Below, one piece after another: positions 6,001 through 9,000 of a stretch of DNA of 64,000 nt. Position numbers: made by a program. Source of the stretch: Escherichia coli (GTDB taxonomy: Bacteria; Pseudomonadota; Gammaproteobacteria; Enterobacterales; Enterobacteriaceae); the NCBI RefSeq assembly GCF_009931435.1, contig NZ_CP043414.1; one strand, given 5' to 3'. Within the stretch, counting starts at the first letter, position 1, and every line of letters starts with the position of its first letter.

Positions 6001-9000
6001 TTAAATAGTTTTAATTTAGCAAATTTGATAAACAACTCACTCGCCATTACCCCGATTGATCTTCGCATAGTCAAACGGCGTAATCGCTCTCTCCCGATTG
6101 GCATCCAGAAAATCTGCCCACCACTGCAGCATCAGCTTGCGCTCATCCAGATGCTCCGCTTTATGGATATACGCTGCCTGCACTGAGTTACGTCCATGTG
6201 GCTCATCTGACGTTCAGCCGCTTTATCTCGTGCTGTTCTGGTCTCAATACTTCCATGCCGTTGCAATTACCTCTTAAACCATTCCTTACCATTTTCATGT
6301 CTTCGATAAGAAATCTTCATCATGCATGATCGATTTTGTCGATCGATTCGATCGAATTTTCTCTTTTTACCCTGCCTTTTGCATGGTTTTAAAATAGGCA
6401 AAATTACTTGTCATTCGTGGAAAATGATGGCGGAGATAACTGAGCTTAAAAAGTTTCTCTTGTCTCCGTCACTTGCCATACCAGCCAGGAAAAGAAGATG
6501 TCAGCACAAGAAAAAACAGTACAGATTGATTCTTTTGATGCGAAATTTTTAGATATAAATACATTAAGCAAGCTTATCTATGAACGTAAGAGTTTTGTGA
6601 TAGAAAATGTTTCCGATGTTAGTGAAACGGTAAAAAGAGTGGAGCATGAAATAGAGAAAAGGAAATTAAGTTGTCGTGTATATACTGAGTACAGGAGCAC
6701 AGCTTTAGCTGGTTCTTTATGGTCACCAACCGTAATTCTGGGAGTGGCGAGTGCAGTAGCAATAGGTGTTCATAATTTATCTACATGGAACCCCGATTAT
6801 GAAATCGGTAAGAACTATATTAAACGGAGATTATCGGTAAAATATAAAAAGGCAGAAGTATTGTGATCGGTTACTCCAGTGCCCCTGCCTGTTCGTATTC
6901 TGGTGAGGTTGTATACACATAATTTCAGGCTGGCGTTCACGTCCTCACTGAGGAAATATATTTATTTTGTGTAGAGTAAAAGTCTGGCTTCCGTAGTGTG
7001 GAGGGGGGAGGCTGCCTTTAGTCCGGTTTTTAAATATTAAAAATATATATTAAAGTGATGATACAATAACGGAGATAATTGAAATGAAAAAGGTTTTTGC
7101 TGTTTCAGTGGTGGGCGCAGCCTGTGTATTTGCAGCAAATGCAGGTGCTGAGGACGGTAAAAGCGGTTTTTATCTGACCGGTAAAGCCGGTGCCTCTGTG
7201 GTGTCACTTTCAGACCAGCGTTTCCTGTCAGGAGATGAAGAAGAAACGTCAAAGTATAAAGGTGGGGATGACCATGACACGGTATTCAGTGGCGGTATCG
7301 CAGCCGGTTATGATTTTTATCCGCAGTTCAGTATTCCGGTTCGTACAGAACTGGAGTTTTACGCACGTGGAAAAGCTGATTCGAAGTATAACATAGATAA
7401 AGGTAAAGGCAGCTGGTCAGATGGTTACTGGCGTGATGACCTTAAGAATGAGGTATCACTCAACACTCTGATGCTGAATGCATACTATGACTTCCGGAAT
7501 GACAGTGCATTCACACCATGGGTATCAGCAGGGATTGGTTACGCCAGGATTCATCAGAAAACAACCGGTATCAGCACCTGGGATTACGGGTACGGATACA
7601 GTGGTCGTGAATCGTTGTCACGTTCAGGCTCTGCTGACAACTTCGCATGGAGCCTTGGCGCGGGTGTTCGCTATGACGTAACCCCGGATATCGCTCTGGA
7701 CCTCAGCTATCGCTATCTTGATGCAGGTGACAGCAGTGTGAGTTACAAGGACGAGTGGGGCGATAAATATAAATCAGAAGTTGATGTTAAAAGTCATGAC
7801 ATCATGCTTGGTGTGACTTATAACTTCTGACGACACTGCTTCTGAACGATAATTGCGCATATTTCTGCAATTAAGATAATTACGTATTTCTGTAATTAAA
7901 AAGGAACACCCTGCAGTAATATTATACTGCAGGGTTGTCTGTTATCTGTTTCACAGATAACTTCTGATTTTTATTATCCTGTTCTCTTCATAATAATGTT
8001 GTCGATATACTCCGATGAATATAAGAAAACTGTTTTGTCCGGGCAACACTCCCCGGATTATATTGTTTTTATTCTTTTTTGTTGTTTCTGTCATAACCAC
8101 AATTGCATGCGGATACACTGAGAAGAATGCCACCGGGAATGTGTTGCTGCTGTTCCTTCTTCTGCTCCTTGCACACAGAAATACCCTCACATCCATTACA
8201 GCGCTGTTATTTCTGTTCTGTTGTGCACTGTATGCGCCTGCCGGTATGACGTACGGAAAAATCAACAACAGTTTTATTGTCGCGTTGTTGCAGACCACGG
8301 CGGATGAGGCTGCGGAGTTTACCGGGATGATTCCTGTTTATCATTTTCTGGTCAGTGCCGCGATTCTGGTGTTCATGGTTATTTTCTGGCGGACACACCA
8401 CCGTGGTCAACGTAACGCGATGGCTCTGTTGTTATTCGTATTATGCTCTGTAAACAGCTGGCCGTTACGGATGGTTAAAGGAACAGTTGTGGGGACAACT
8501 GACACATTGCGTGAAATGCAGCGTTATGAACAACTGAGTCGGCACGGTGCTGACAGCTGGAAAATCCTGCCGGGAGCACCATTATATGACACGATTGTTA
8601 TTGTTACTGGTGAGAGTGTCCGCAGGGATTATATGTCGGTATATGGTTATCCCGAGCCAACCACACCATGGCTGAATACGGCTCCCGGTTTATTTATTGA
8701 CGGTTATACATCGGCAGCAGCCAGTACCGTACCTTCCCTGAGCCGGACACTGATTTATGACTATGAGCAGAACCCTGACTCCGGCAACAACGTGGTGGCG
8801 CTGGCAGCAAAAGCAGGATACAGCACATGGTGGATATCCAATCAGGGAAAGCTGGGGGAGCATGATACACGCATCTCTGTTATTGCTTCTGATGCGGAGC
8901 ATACCGTTTTCCTCAAGAAAGGCAGCTTTGCTTCCCGTAAAACGGATGACATGTTGTTGTTACAGGAAACAGAACGTGCGCTGGCAGATACATCCACTCC

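What the first reader, a model, noticed from the sequence alone, without database searches (positions are those of the whole stretch)
6498..6866. Orphan small membrane protein gene in the island
The 122-aa AT-rich ORF with one predicted TM helix has no recognisable family and sits between an integrase remnant and envelope-modification genes. Small single-TM proteins in islands are often toxins, immunity proteins or abortive-infection effectors.
Basis: inference. Interest (0 to 1): 0.35.

Follow-up and report, generated by a model that had tools for sequence, protein, structure and literature searches.

The report
Conserved small membrane-hairpin protein gene
This is a real, well-conserved gene for a small protein of a widespread but undescribed family carried by mobile genomic islands; in E. 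coli it lies between an adhesin gene and that adhesin's methylation-site-rich promoter, and its function is still unknown.

Summary
The 122-aa ORF at 6498-6866 (+) is real: good ribosome-binding site, 35% GC, under purifying selection, present in about 9% of complete E. coli genomes. It is not an orphan. It belongs to a family of at least 191 sequence clusters across Proteobacteria. No member matches any Pfam, NCBIfam, PHROGs, PADLOC or PDB entry.

The "single TM helix" is better read as a 25-residue uncharged, small-residue-rich hairpin. It is inserted between two strands of a confidently predicted compact alpha/beta domain, so both termini lie on the same side of the membrane.

The family travels on tRNA-integrating islands (AlpA, YagK/YfjJ, DUF932, RadC backbone) and on IncF plasmids, never on phages. 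Its co-oriented neighbours are enriched for exported proteins (41% vs 11%).

In this window the downstream "OMP" is a Hra-family adhesin (Tia/Hek-like). ORF122 sits inside an ~85-nt duplication of that adhesin's 5' region, behind a conserved 3xGATC cluster and promoter. In 650 other genomes the same cluster and promoter drive the adhesin directly.

Paralogues in other Enterobacterales carry an agn43-like Dam/OxyR operator.

I found no support for a toxin, immunity or Abi role. The mechanism remains inferred.

The parts
6037..6221 (-). Integrase remnant (pseudogene) forming the left neighbour. It is not part of the conserved module.
   Evidence: RefSeq annotation of the identical sequence in L001 (8838-9022: 'integrase; frameshifted; incomplete'). 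ORF fragment 6037..6183. The homology with the tRNA-Phe island starts only at 6288.
6288..9503 (+). 3.2-kb module (regulatory region, ORF122, Hra-family adhesin, phosphoethanolamine transferase) shared as one block by two different islands.
   Evidence: blastn window vs L003/L004: 6288-9503, 94.7% identity. Gene order is the same.
6322..6356 (.). Cluster of three GATC (Dam) sites at 6328, 6341 and 6350 within TCGATCGA-type palindromes. Candidate methylation-sensitive operator.
   Evidence: Sequence and GATC positions. The GATCs are invariant in five diverged loci, including one (L084) whose flanks have diverged and which has a fourth GATC. The 13-nt spacing of the first pair equals that of GATC pairs inside OxyR half-sites of gtr (PMC2909390). 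Resemblance to the agn43 operator is weak (score 30; reached by 1 of 500 shuffles).
6366..6395 (+). Sigma-70-like promoter: TTTACC, 18-nt spacer, TAAAAT.
   Evidence: Consensus scan. Both hexamers are invariant in all five aligned Hra-family upstream regions. In L082, L083 and L084 the same promoter lies about 45 nt before the adhesin start codon.
6372..6456 (+). First copy of an ~85-nt duplication of the adhesin gene's promoter-proximal 5' region. It ends in a decayed copy of the adhesin RBS and start (CGGAGATAACTGAGCTTAAAAAGTTT).
   Evidence: Direct repeats D1 and D2 at 639-640 nt spacing. Alignment to the tia upstream region.
6487..6490 (+). Ribosome-binding site AGGA, 7 nt before the ATG.
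   Evidence: Sequence.
6498..6866 (+). ORF122 coding sequence (122 aa): compact alpha/beta domain with an inserted hydrophobic hairpin.
6696..6770 (+). Codons 67-91: uncharged Ala/Gly/Ser-rich segment (G82xxxA86xxxG90) with a conserved central Pro-Thr. Predicted helix-turn-helix hairpin.
   Evidence: Family statistics: median 25 residues, and 67 of 85 members have no charged residue in the segment. AF2 gives pLDDT below 50 but helix 66-73 / turn / helix 79-95.
7012..7095 (+). Second copy of the duplication, carrying the working RBS and ATG of the adhesin gene (CGGAGATAATTGAAATGAAAAAGGTT).
7084..7830 (+). Hra-family outer-membrane adhesin/invasin (Hek/Hra1-like; 64% identical to Tia).
   Evidence: Pfam OMP_b-brl 2e-20. 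158 of 248 residues identical to annotated Tia WP_001385633.1. Family relations are given in PMC5539235. The UTI89 copy lies in the Hek/P-pilus island (PMC7545054).
7908..7935 (.). Perfect 11-bp-stem palindrome between the adhesin and transferase genes. Terminator-like on both strands.
8015..9517 (+). Phosphoethanolamine transferase (sulfatase-fold, EptA/CptA-like; homologue of the K-12 yjgX pseudogene).
   Evidence: Pfam Sulfatase 6.5e-37 and NCBIfam CptA/EptA partial matches. 90.6% nt identity to K-12 yjgX.

Best explanation
ORF122 is a functional gene for a member of an undescribed, widely distributed family (called FAM below) of small proteins encoded on mobile elements.

**Structure (predicted).** The protein is a compact cytoplasmic alpha/beta domain. 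A 25-residue uncharged, glycine-zipper-like helical hairpin projects from it. The hairpin most likely dips into the cytoplasmic membrane, or packs with copies of itself, while both termini stay on the same side. This is a monotopic anchor rather than a single-pass TM protein.

**Arrangement in this window (shown by sequence).** The gene has been placed inside a duplicated 5' region of a Hra-family adhesin gene (Hek/Hra1-like). It sits downstream of that adhesin's conserved promoter and 3xGATC cluster.

**Expression (inferred).** ORF122 is therefore most likely the promoter-proximal gene of an ORF122-adhesin transcript. Expression would be set by a Dam-methylation-sensitive, possibly phase-variable, switch.

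**Role (weakest step, inferred).** Across the family the gene is typically co-oriented and tightly spaced with genes for exported proteins. I infer that it acts at the inner face of the membrane in connection with co-expressed surface or envelope cargo.

**Status of each step.**
- Shown: gene reality, conservation, family breadth, genomic anatomy, the duplication, the shared promoter region and the neighbour enrichment.
- Predicted: fold and hairpin topology.
- Inferred: co-transcription, Dam/OxyR control and the envelope-linked role.
For: **Real and selected.**
- RBS, AT-rich composition and low dN/dS.
- Found in 501 of 5426 complete E. coli genomes; 462 of these copies are at least 80% of full length.

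**Family.**
- 191 clusters at E<=1e-3 and 90 at E<=1e-10.
- Invariant H92 and P99; near-invariant R60, R66, T96, D100, Y101, E102.
- 67 loci in 20 or more genera.

**No known family.**

**Fold.**
- AF2 mean pLDDT is 76.8, with the core above 90.
- The hydrophobic stretch sits between strands 59-63 and 101-106 of the same sheet.
- In the linked pseudo-dimer it is predicted as helix-turn-helix.
- The segment is uncharged in 67 of 85 members and has G/A/S at i, i+4, i+8.

**Anchor-like modularity.**
- The domain occurs in tandem.
- It occurs N-terminal or C-terminal to soluble domains: TerB three times, TerD+Sel1, BspA-type LRR, and lipoyl-like. This fits both termini lying on one side of the membrane.

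**Mobile-element home.**
- Neighbours are DUF932, Gp3-like RDF, RadC, AlpA, YagK/YfjJ, GTPase and antirestriction genes.
- 256 plasmids carry a paralogue; no phage does.

**Exported neighbours.**
- 30 of 73 co-oriented adjacent ORFs carry a predicted signal peptide or lipobox, against 54 of 501 controls (Fisher p=1.6e-9).
- At cluster level the count is 16 of 40 distinct neighbour clusters.
- Intergenic gaps are mostly 0-100 nt. One example is an OmpA-like barrel gene directly downstream in Dechloromonas-type islands.

**Adhesin operon anatomy.**
- Window 6056-6401 equals the region directly upstream of tia in L082, and the ORF122 segment is absent there.
- 650 genomes have the ORF122-less form.
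- There is an 85-nt duplication at 640-nt spacing, with a decayed adhesin start upstream of ORF122.
- No promoter-like site and no convincing terminator lie between ORF122 and the adhesin gene.

**Regulatory element.**
- The GATCs and both promoter hexamers are invariant across five diverged loci.
- Paralogues in E. coli L079, IncF plasmids, Trabulsiella, Hafnia and Enterobacterales 8AC have an agn43-like 3xGATC operator 100-200 nt upstream. These gave the 16 best scores among 5893 tiles.
Against: - There are no expression data of any kind. The promoter is a consensus match only.
- The hairpin has pLDDT below 50 in both AF2 runs, and the pseudo-dimer was not confident (pTM 0.43). Membrane insertion, topology and oligomerisation are therefore unproven. 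A 25-residue uncharged stretch could in principle span a bilayer if the AF2 core is wrong.
- Hra-family adhesins work without ORF122. Tia loci lack it, and hes/hra1 coding sequences cloned alone confer the phenotypes (PMC5539235). ORF122 is therefore not an obligatory partner.
- Exported neighbours belong to many unrelated families. The enrichment could reflect a cargo hot-spot rather than a functional link. My signal-peptide test and ORF calling are crude heuristics.
- The window's GATC cluster matches the OxyR half-site consensus only 7 of 10, and its spacing (13/9) differs from agn43 (19/13).
- In four Enterobacterales loci the agn43-like operator lies in a divergent intergenic region. It could instead serve the lipoprotein gene on the other side.
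- In the 217-nt gap before the adhesin gene, a weak terminator-like hairpin (6942-6954) and the degenerate second promoter copy could uncouple the two genes.
Confidence: 0.5

Rival explanations
1. Membrane-damaging toxin or abortive-infection effector. On induction or phage attack the glycine-zipper hairpins oligomerise into a pore and depolarise the cell.
For: - Small, AT-rich and island-borne, next to a type I R-M system and an AAA ATPase that resembles defence proteins.
- The GxxxAxxxG-type motif and the uncharged hairpin are the kind of element seen in channel-forming peptides (the link to channels rests on general knowledge of glycine zippers).
- Tight, possibly switch-like regulation would suit a costly protein.
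Against: - No PADLOC hit.
- The R-M/ATPase genes are outside the conserved 3.2-kb module and are absent from the tRNA-Phe island copy.
- No conserved antitoxin-like partner exists across 67 loci.
- No Rfam antisense RNA was found.
- 92% of E. coli copies are intact, and the gene persists alone on 249 or more IncF plasmids between IS elements.
- At 122 aa with a folded domain, it is unlike type I toxins.
- The family occurs as a module fused to TerB, LRR and Sel1 domains, which fits an anchor better than a toxin.
Confidence: 0.15
2. Exclusion-type protein. An inner-membrane component blocks entry of incoming DNA (phage or conjugative), working alongside a co-encoded outer-membrane or lipoprotein partner, in the manner of TraS/TraT or Imm/Sp.
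For: - Enrichment of co-oriented OMP/lipoprotein neighbours.
- Carried on mobile elements and conjugative plasmids.
- Phase-variable control is known for envelope functions that trade phage resistance against fitness (opvAB, gtr: PMC3350482, PMC2909390).
Against: - Exclusion and immunity proteins are usually highly variable and element-specific. FAM is strongly conserved (invariant motif over 85 members), while its partners are unrelated to one another.
- There is no homology to any known exclusion protein.
- The model places most of the protein in the cytoplasm, with nothing exposed to the periplasm.
Confidence: 0.12
3. Element-establishment or anti-defence function. The gene is a backbone gene of the island class, expressed on entry into a new host, and unrelated to the adhesin.
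For: - Constant association with DUF932, antirestriction, RadC, Gp3-like RDF, AlpA and YagK/YfjJ genes in Beta- and Gammaproteobacteria.
- GATC clusters can make promoters respond to hemimethylated, newly transferred or replicated DNA (general knowledge; PMC4659465 discussion).
Against: - The hydrophobic hairpin and the exported-protein neighbours are not explained.
- In the window and on IncF plasmids the gene has been separated from that backbone yet is kept intact.
- No similarity to known anti-defence proteins was found.
Confidence: 0.08
4. Functionless passenger in E. coli. A family member was captured by an illegitimate duplication or insertion in the adhesin leader and simply hitch-hikes.
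For: - The duplication scars flanking the ORF.
- The ORF-less arrangement is commoner (650 vs about 500 genomes).
- The copy in one O25b:H4 strain is cut by ISEc12, and truncated variants exist.
Against: - dN/dS is 0.09 between the two island copies, with only 1 nonsynonymous change, and 92% of copies are intact.
- ORF122 is less diverged (dS 0.04) than the neighbouring adhesin and transferase genes (dS 0.17). This argues against relaxed constraint.
Confidence: 0.07

Closest known systems
opvAB (STM2209-STM2208) of Salmonella enterica
   Same: Horizontally acquired, low-GC, small inner-membrane proteins with no homologues of known function. They are transcribed from a promoter with an upstream cluster of GATC sites and OxyR sites, are phase-variable, and affect the envelope and phage sensitivity (PMC3350482).
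   Different: There is no sequence or architectural similarity. OpvA and OpvB are classical membrane proteins that alter O-antigen length. For ORF122, neither OxyR binding, phase variation nor any envelope effect has been shown. ORF122's family is widespread, also in bacteria that are not expected to use Dam.
agn43 (flu) Dam/OxyR operator of E. coli
   Same: Paralogues of ORF122 in E. coli (L079), IncF plasmids, Trabulsiella, Hafnia and Enterobacterales 8AC carry an element 100-200 nt upstream that aligns over about 50 nt with the agn43 operator. It has three GATCs at 18/13 nt against 19/13 in agn43. They sit in the same class of island slot (GTPase to DUF932) that holds agn43 in CP4-44.
   Different: - The window's own element is only a weak match, with spacing 13/9 and no agn43-like promoter upstream of the GATCs.
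- The window's element is shared with Hra-family adhesin genes that lack ORF122.
- The downstream gene is a 12-13 kDa cytoplasmic/membrane protein, not an autotransporter.
gtr operons (P22 and Salmonella)
   Same: Phase-variable envelope-modifying cassettes on mobile elements. GATC pairs 13 nt apart lie inside OxyR half-sites upstream of the promoter (PMC2909390). The window's GATC 6328/6341 pair has the same spacing and sits at about -74/-61 from the predicted start.
   Different: gtr has four GATCs in two separated pairs and three defined OxyR half-sites. GtrA is a multi-pass flippase unrelated to ORF122.
SepF / IF3-C / Alba-like small alpha/beta folds
   Different: Scores are in the generic range. 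Foldseek finds nothing at E<=1e-3 in PDB or BFVD. SepF binds membrane by an N-terminal amphipathic helix, not an internal hairpin. There is no sequence relationship.
TerB-domain membrane-tethered proteins (e.g. DUF533/YebE-type)
   Same: Three independent family members fuse the FAM domain to a C-terminal TerB domain, another to TerD+Sel1. In known proteins TerB is commonly tethered to the inner membrane by a hydrophobic anchor (general knowledge).
   Different: ORF122 itself has no TerB domain. The fusion only suggests what the FAM domain is used for (anchoring or localisation).

Membership tests
Any curated protein family (Pfam-A, NCBIfam, PHROGs, PADLOC, PDB sequences) | Significant profile-HMM match | tested here: not met
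   0 families for ORF122. No family is shared by more than 2 of the 85 members. The profile search of PDB returned nothing at E<=10.
Single-pass (bitopic) membrane protein | One hydrophobic helix of about 20 residues that separates the N- and C-terminal parts across the bilayer | tested here: inconclusive
   A 25-residue uncharged segment is present (KD 1.71). AF2 puts the flanking strands 59-63 and 101-106 in one sheet with pLDDT above 90, which implies a hairpin. The segment itself has pLDDT below 50. Topology was not tested experimentally.
Type I toxin-antitoxin small membrane toxins (Hok, TisB, Ibs type) | Peptide under about 60 aa that is essentially one TM helix, with an overlapping antisense RNA | tested here: not met
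   122 aa with a folded alpha/beta domain. There is no Rfam RNA in 5800-8100. Antisense transcription itself is not testable here.
Type II toxin-antitoxin or toxin-immunity pair | A conserved adjacent partner gene that co-varies with it | tested here: not met
   Across 67 loci no partner cluster accompanies the gene throughout. The neighbours fall into 40 distinct clusters.
Known anti-phage defence systems | Match to a defence-system protein model, within a complete system | tested here: not met
   No PADLOC hit for ORF122. The upstream AAA ATPase does hit PDC-M55A, NsnB and AriA models, but it lies outside the conserved module.
Phage holin / lysis or moron gene | Occurrence in phage genomes or lysis cassettes | tested here: not met
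   tblastn against 50,697 phage records: no match. BFVD fold search: nothing significant.
agn43-type Dam/OxyR phase-variation switch (regulatory region of ORF122) | Three or more GATC sites inside an OxyR-binding site that overlaps the promoter or leader | tested here: inconclusive
   Three GATCs lie within 26 nt and are conserved in five diverged loci. However, the OxyR half-site match is only 7/10, the spacing is 13/9 against 19/13, and the cluster lies upstream of the predicted -35.
agn43-type Dam/OxyR phase-variation switch (regulatory region of ORF122) | OxyR binding blocked by methylation; heritable ON/OFF states | not testable with these tools
   Needs EMSA or footprinting, methylome data and reporter fusions.
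agn43-type switch (paralogues in other Enterobacterales) | Sequence homology to the agn43 operator with the same GATC number and spacing | tested here: met
   L079 score 50, L080 49, IncF 45, Trabulsiella 43, Hafnia 37. These are the top of 5893 tiles, with 0-1 of 500 shuffles reaching them. GATC spacing is 18/13.
Hra family of outer-membrane adhesins (the downstream gene 7084-7830) | About 25-kDa OMP beta-barrel with roughly 65% or more identity to Tia/Hra1/Hek/Hes | tested here: met
   248 aa, OMP_b-brl 2e-20. 64% identical to annotated Tia. Family identities are given in PMC5539235. Direct comparison with Hek/Hra1 sequences was not done.

The most novel reading that the evidence does not exclude
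FAM is a new, widespread family of monotopic (hairpin-anchored) inner-membrane proteins of mobile elements.

- They act as dedicated cytoplasmic-side partners or regulators for co-transcribed exported surface proteins (adhesins, OMPs, lipoproteins).
- In Enterobacterales, FAM genes, and with them the Hek/Hra1/Tia adhesins, would be switched ON/OFF epigenetically by agn43-like Dam/OxyR operators.

This would add a previously unrecognised set of phase-variable loci to E. coli pathogenicity islands.
Probability: 0.2. Interest if true: 0.65.

Novelty: new variant of a known kind. Interest (0 to 1): 0.45.

Why it matters
**Where the gene sits.** ORF122 lies directly upstream of hek/hra-type adhesin genes in widely studied uropathogenic and neonatal-meningitis E. 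coli islands, and behind the same conserved 3xGATC/promoter element that precedes tia.

**If the element is a Dam-dependent switch.**
- Hra-family adhesins, which are autoaggregation and invasion factors used as virulence markers, would be heterogeneously expressed like Ag43.
- That would affect how their regulation and phenotypes are measured.
- ORF122 would be an unstudied co-expressed component of the locus.

**The family more broadly.** It has 190 or more clusters, invariant His/Pro/Asp/Tyr/Glu residues and an unusual domain-with-inserted-hairpin architecture. It is missing from every curated library searched, so it is a clean target for defining a new domain family. Its recurrent pairing with exported cargo on islands gives a concrete hypothesis to test.

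**If it proves to be only a conserved hypothetical passenger.** The practical gains are a corrected annotation (not an orphan, probably not bitopic) and the recognition that the neighbouring 'OMP' is a Hra-family adhesin.

Tried and rejected
1. **Named-family search.** Pfam, NCBIfam, PHROGs, PADLOC and PDB, by single sequence, by 85 members individually and by profile, gave nothing. A lone phrog_12164 hit (E=0.0017) was not shared by other members.

2. **Fold search.**
   - Foldseek on PDB and BFVD found nothing at E<=1e-3.
   - AFDB50 was unavailable.

3. **Homodimer test.** I used a Gly-Ser-linked pseudo-dimer alignment. The result was pTM 0.43 with the hairpin still below 50 pLDDT, so it neither supports nor excludes oligomerisation.

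4. **K-12 yjgW.** I considered that ORF122 might correspond to K-12 yjgW. K-12 retains only the transferase pseudogene yjgX, and no ORF122 homologue is in the region shown.

5. **Insertion site.** I first assumed a leuX island. The window's island is in fact at tRNA-Sec (selC).

6. **Conserved FAM-OMP pair.** The Dechloromonas-type neighbour is also an OMP barrel but is not detectably related to the E. coli adhesin. The Enterobacterales divergent lipoprotein family is not found next to FAM in other taxa.

7. **Attribution of the GATC cluster.** I first attributed it to ORF122 itself. Comparison with tia loci shows it belongs to the Hra-family regulatory region that ORF122 now shares.

8. **Literature.** Searches by accession numbers and for hek/hra with Dam/phase variation found nothing relevant. 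The key agn43 and Hra1 papers are not held.

9. **Cluster look-up.** It returned an unrelated 377-aa ThiM-like 'representative' for ORF122's cluster. I treated this as a database artefact.

10. **Flank comparison with paralogues.** Only the coding region is alignable, so the source of the inserted segment is unknown.
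Full report

- It has an AGGA ribosome-binding site 7 nt upstream.
- GC is 35% and GC3 is 27%, in a locally AT-rich stretch.
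- RefSeq annotates the identical sequence as 'hypothetical protein' WP_001275820.1.
- That annotation places a frameshifted integrase fragment on its left, and an outer-membrane protein and a phosphoethanolamine transferase on its right.
- A megablast of the ORF alone finds it in 501 of 5426 complete E. coli genomes. It is at least 80% full length in 462 of them, always chromosomal.
- One O25b:H4 strain has it cut by ISEc12.

**2. Is it a gene?**

Yes.

- Against the copy in a second island, ORF122 shows 3 synonymous and 1 nonsynonymous differences (dN/dS 0.09).
- Against the Trabulsiella and Hafnia orthologues, synonymous sites are saturated while dN is 0.18-0.23.
- Trabulsiella against Hafnia gives dN/dS of about 0.04.

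**3. It is not an orphan.**

- A word-indexed search found 42 relatives down to 43% identity in Enterobacterales and Betaproteobacteria.
- An exhaustive phmmer scan of 1.84 billion cluster representatives found 191 clusters at E<=1e-3 and 90 at E<=1e-10.
- A genome scan returned 67 confirmed loci. They come from Trabulsiella, Hafnia, Vibrio, Aeromonas, Alcanivorax, Pseudomonas, Psychrobacter, Avibacterium, Burkholderia, Pandoraea, Ralstonia, Dechloromonas, Rhodoferax, Thiothrix, Sulfurimonas and a few non-proteobacterial MAGs.
- In an 85-sequence alignment H92 and P99 are invariant. F33, E49, R60, R66, T96, D100, Y101 and E102 are 90% or more conserved.
- The family signature is CRVYTxxR-[25 uncharged residues]-HNxxTxNPDYEIxK...VxYKK.
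- None of the 85 members hits a shared family in Pfam-A, NCBIfam or PHROGs.
- ORF122 itself hits nothing in PADLOC.
- The family profile finds nothing in PDB sequences at E<=10.

I call the family FAM in this report.

**4. What the protein looks like.**

- AlphaFold2 on the 85-sequence alignment gives mean pLDDT 76.8 and pTM 0.67.
- The confident core (pLDDT above 90) has this order: strand 11-14, helix 20-28, strand 33-36, helix 41-54, strand 59-63, then strands 101-106 and 111-116.
- The hydrophobic stretch (about 67-95) is an insertion between strands 59-63 and 101-106, with pLDDT below 50.
- In a Gly-Ser-linked pseudo-dimer run it is drawn as helix 66-73, turn, helix 79-95. It is still low confidence and there is no confident dimer (pTM 0.43).
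- Across the family the segment has a median of 25 residues and carries no charge in 67 of 85 members.
- It has a central Pro/Gly-Thr and small residues at 82/86/90 (GxxxAxxxG).
- It is bracketed by conserved basic and aromatic residues.
- The best 19-residue Kyte-Doolittle window is 1.71, which is borderline.

Because the flanking strands belong to one sheet, the segment must return to the side it started from. This is a prediction, not a demonstration.

**5. Domain behaviour.**

- FAM occurs as tandem copies (P0044, P0116, P0173).
- It also occurs fused on either side to soluble modules: TerB three times (P0045, P0113, P0182), TerD+Sel1 (P0122), BspA-type LRR (P0112, L069) and lipoyl-like (P0078, P0114).
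- Fusions at both ends fit a module whose termini are on the same side of the membrane.
- They suggest it is used as an anchoring or assembly unit. This is inference.

**6. Where the family lives.**

- Clustering all ORFs of the 67 loci shows recurrent neighbours typical of tRNA-integrating islands: DUF932, a Gp3-like recombination directionality factor, RadC, AlpA, YagK/YfjJ, RNase H and DUF2787.
- In Enterobacterales the recurrent neighbours are a YeeP-like GTPase, antirestriction, DUF3987 and CbtA/CbeA.
- A 70%-identical paralogue sits on 256 plasmids, mostly conjugative IncF. There it lies alone between IS110- and IS1-family elements.
- No phage record carries it.
- No partner gene is conserved throughout.

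**7. A neighbourhood signal.**

- Co-oriented ORFs immediately adjacent to FAM carry a predicted signal peptide or lipobox in 30 of 73 cases.
- The control rate is 54 of 501 for ORFs two or more genes away (odds ratio 5.8, p=1.6e-9).
- At the level of distinct neighbour clusters the count is 16 of 40.
- Intergenic gaps are mostly 0-100 nt.
- The neighbours are unrelated to one another:
  - an OmpA-like barrel with an autotransporter-like beta-domain in Dechloromonas-type islands;
  - lipoproteins in Alcanivorax and Vibrio;
  - secreted proteins in Pseudomonas.
- In Enterobacterales a homologous family of signal-peptide/lipobox proteins followed by a DUF4234 membrane protein lies divergently across the upstream intergenic region.

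My ORF calling and signal-peptide rule are heuristics. The size of the effect is suggestive, not proof of a functional link.

**8. The E. coli locus: ORF122 is embedded in an adhesin locus.**

- The island in the window is at tRNA-Sec (38973-39067, minus strand).
- Gene order is: hsdR'MS, AAA ATPase, 313-aa protein, integrase remnant, ORF122, OMP, transferase, IS1-bounded resistance region, TPR protein, integrase, selC.
- The block 6288-9503 recurs at 94.7% identity in islands at tRNA-Phe next to the pap operon.
- The UTI89 copy lies inside the leuX island, which carries Hek and P pili (PMC7545054).
- The 'OMP' is 64% identical to annotated Tia. That is the Tia-to-Hra1/Hek/Hes distance reported for the Hra adhesin family (PMC5539235). 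It is therefore a Hek/Hra1-like adhesin/invasin, not simply an envelope-modification gene.

Comparison with strain Iso00225 is informative.

- Window 6056-6401 (integrase remnant, GATC cluster, promoter) is 90% identical to the region directly upstream of tia.
- The segment containing ORF122 is missing there.
- 650 complete genomes have this ORF-less form.

The window also carries an ~85-nt duplication.

- Window 6372-6456 is repeated at 7012-7095, at 640-nt spacing, with 76-81% identity.
- The second copy carries the adhesin RBS and ATG (CGGAGATAATTGAAATGAAAAAGGTT).
- The first copy is a decayed version (CGGAGATAACTGAGCTTAAAAAGTTT).

ORF122 therefore sits inside a duplicated 5' region of the adhesin gene and downstream of its promoter. 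Whether ORF122 was inserted or the tia-type loci lost it cannot be decided here.

Between ORF122 and the adhesin gene:
- No promoter-like site is detected.
- The RNA folds no better than shuffles (z -0.12).
- There is only a weak terminator-like hairpin at 6942-6954.

Co-transcription is the simplest reading, but it is inferred.

**9. The regulatory element.**

- Upstream of ORF122, 6322-6356 holds three GATC sites (6328, 6341, 6350) in TCGATCGA palindromes.
- They are followed by TTTACC-N18-TAAAAT at 6366-6395.
- I aligned five loci: the window, the tRNA-Phe island, tia, and two 245-aa OMP alleles in other contexts.
- The GATCs and both promoter hexamers are invariant in all five.
- This holds even in L084, where the flanks have diverged and a 9-nt insertion adds a fourth GATC.
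- The 13-nt spacing of the first pair is the spacing of GATC pairs within OxyR half-sites of gtr (PMC2909390).
- However, the match to the OxyR half-site consensus is only 7/10.

**10. agn43-like operators in paralogues.**

FAM paralogues in other Enterobacterales islands have, 100-200 nt upstream, an element that aligns over about 50 nt with the E. coli K-12 agn43 operator.

- agn43 operator: ATAGAATAAAACGATCAATATCTATTTTATCGATCGTTTATATCGATCGAT
- L079 element: ATAGATAAAAACGATCGATTATTGATTATTGATCGTTTTTATAGATCGAT
- The paralogue element has three GATCs at 18/13 nt, against 19/13 in agn43.
- I scanned 5893 tiles (window plus all loci). The 16 best scores all lie directly upstream of FAM genes.
- 0-1 of 500 shuffles reach the scores for IncF, Trabulsiella and Hafnia.
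- agn43 is the paradigm of OxyR-repressed, Dam-relieved phase variation (PMC3764049).
- opvAB shows the same logic for small, horizontally acquired inner-membrane proteins (PMC3350482).

Caveats:
- In four loci the operator lies in a divergent intergenic region and could serve the lipoprotein gene opposite. IncF plasmids keep it with FAM alone.
- One paralogue (L081) lacks it, and K. aerogenes has a decayed version.
- No binding or methylation data exist.

**11. What it most likely is and does.**

Shown:
- a selected gene of a broad, undescribed family borne on mobile elements;
- the family's recurrent placement next to exported cargo;
- in E. coli, embedding of the gene in the 5' region of a Hra-family adhesin gene, behind a conserved GATC-rich promoter region.

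Predicted:
- a cytoplasmic alpha/beta domain with a membrane-dipping or self-packing hairpin.

Inferred:
- co-transcription with the adhesin;
- methylation-sensitive (possibly phase-variable) expression;
- a role at the inner face of the membrane connected with co-expressed envelope proteins.

I put about 0.5 on this composite. The descriptive parts are near-certain and the functional part is weak.

The adhesins work without ORF122, so it is at most an accessory.

The toxin/Abi, exclusion, establishment and passenger alternatives are not excluded. I give them lower weight for the reasons listed under the rival explanations.

**12. Novelty and score.**

- The gene is annotated only as hypothetical.
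- I found no paper mentioning it, and none linking hek/hra/tia to Dam.
- The kind of thing is familiar: a small island-borne membrane-associated accessory protein, possibly under a Dam switch.
- The family, its architecture and its placement in the adhesin locus appear undescribed.
- Interest is moderate at 0.45. It is a solid lead with testable predictions, not a demonstrated new mechanism.

Noticed in passing
L079 4803-4853; L075 about 8850-8900; L008 3415-3470; L009 4791-4840; L080 about 4300-4400: agn43-like three-GATC operator (18/13-nt spacing, about 50 nt alignable to the K-12 flu operator) upstream of FAM paralogues in E. coli, IncF plasmids, Trabulsiella, Hafnia and Enterobacterales 8AC. 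These are the top-scoring matches among 5893 tiles. They suggest unrecognised Dam/OxyR phase-variable loci.
   Followed up: partly
window 6322-6395; L082 16060-16135; L083 about 2560-2640; L084 about 2455-2545: The 3xGATC cluster plus TTTACC/TAAAAT promoter is conserved upstream of Hra-family adhesin genes (tia, hek/hra-like, 245-aa alleles), with or without ORF122. One allele has a fourth GATC. I found no report of Dam-dependent control of these adhesins in the held literature.
   Followed up: partly
window 3296-5814: Directly after the type I R-M genes hsdM/hsdS lie a 540-aa AAA ATPase (PADLOC PDC-M55A 1e-40, NsnB 3e-37, AriA 5e-22; DUF3696 C-terminus) and an overlapping 313-aa protein (weak NsnC match). 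This is a probable two-gene defence system. It is disrupted by IS2 in strain WP2-S18-ESBL-08 (L001).
   Followed up: partly
window 9648-35796: IS1-bounded resistance region inserted between the transferase gene and the selC-proximal TPR/integrase genes. It holds IS1 copies, merR/merT/truncated merP, blaTEM-1 (11640-12500), Tn3-type resolvase and transposase, GC-rich integron/transposon-like sequence (63-72% GC around 16.5-20 kb) and a cat gene (34146-34805).
   Followed up: no
window 7908-7935: Perfect 11-bp-stem palindrome ACCCTGCAGTAATATTATACTGCAGGGT between the adhesin and transferase genes. It is terminator-like on both strands and is followed by a promoter-like site at 7950-7977.
   Followed up: no
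L009 2605-4652; L080 1211-4036; L007 9423-11493; L008 2554-3231; L079 3678-4160: A modular family of signal-peptide/lipobox proteins (160-494 aa, shared N-terminal W-x3-5-G-x-C motif) followed by a DUF4234 membrane protein. It lies divergently from FAM in Enterobacterales islands and has no Pfam match for the lipoprotein part.
   Followed up: partly
L080 4629-4874; cluster C11 in Dechloromonas/Pseudomonas loci: Small Gly/Ala-rich 'glycine-zipper' ORFs recur near FAM and DUF932. One is an 81-aa ORF between the agn43-like operator and FAM in L080. Others are 110-135-aa zinc-ribbon plus Gly-zipper proteins next to DUF932.
   Followed up: no
/ P0188, P0195: The 90%-identity cluster reported for ORF122 has as 'representative' an unrelated 377-aa ThiM-like (hydroxyethylthiazole kinase) protein. 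This is apparently an error of the cluster table, not biology.
   Followed up: yes
window 6498-6866 vs L003 9211-9579: Between the selC- and tRNA-Phe-island copies of the module, ORF122 is much less diverged (dS 0.04) than the adjacent adhesin and transferase genes (dS 0.17). This hints at recent recombination or a different history for the ORF122 segment.
   Followed up: no
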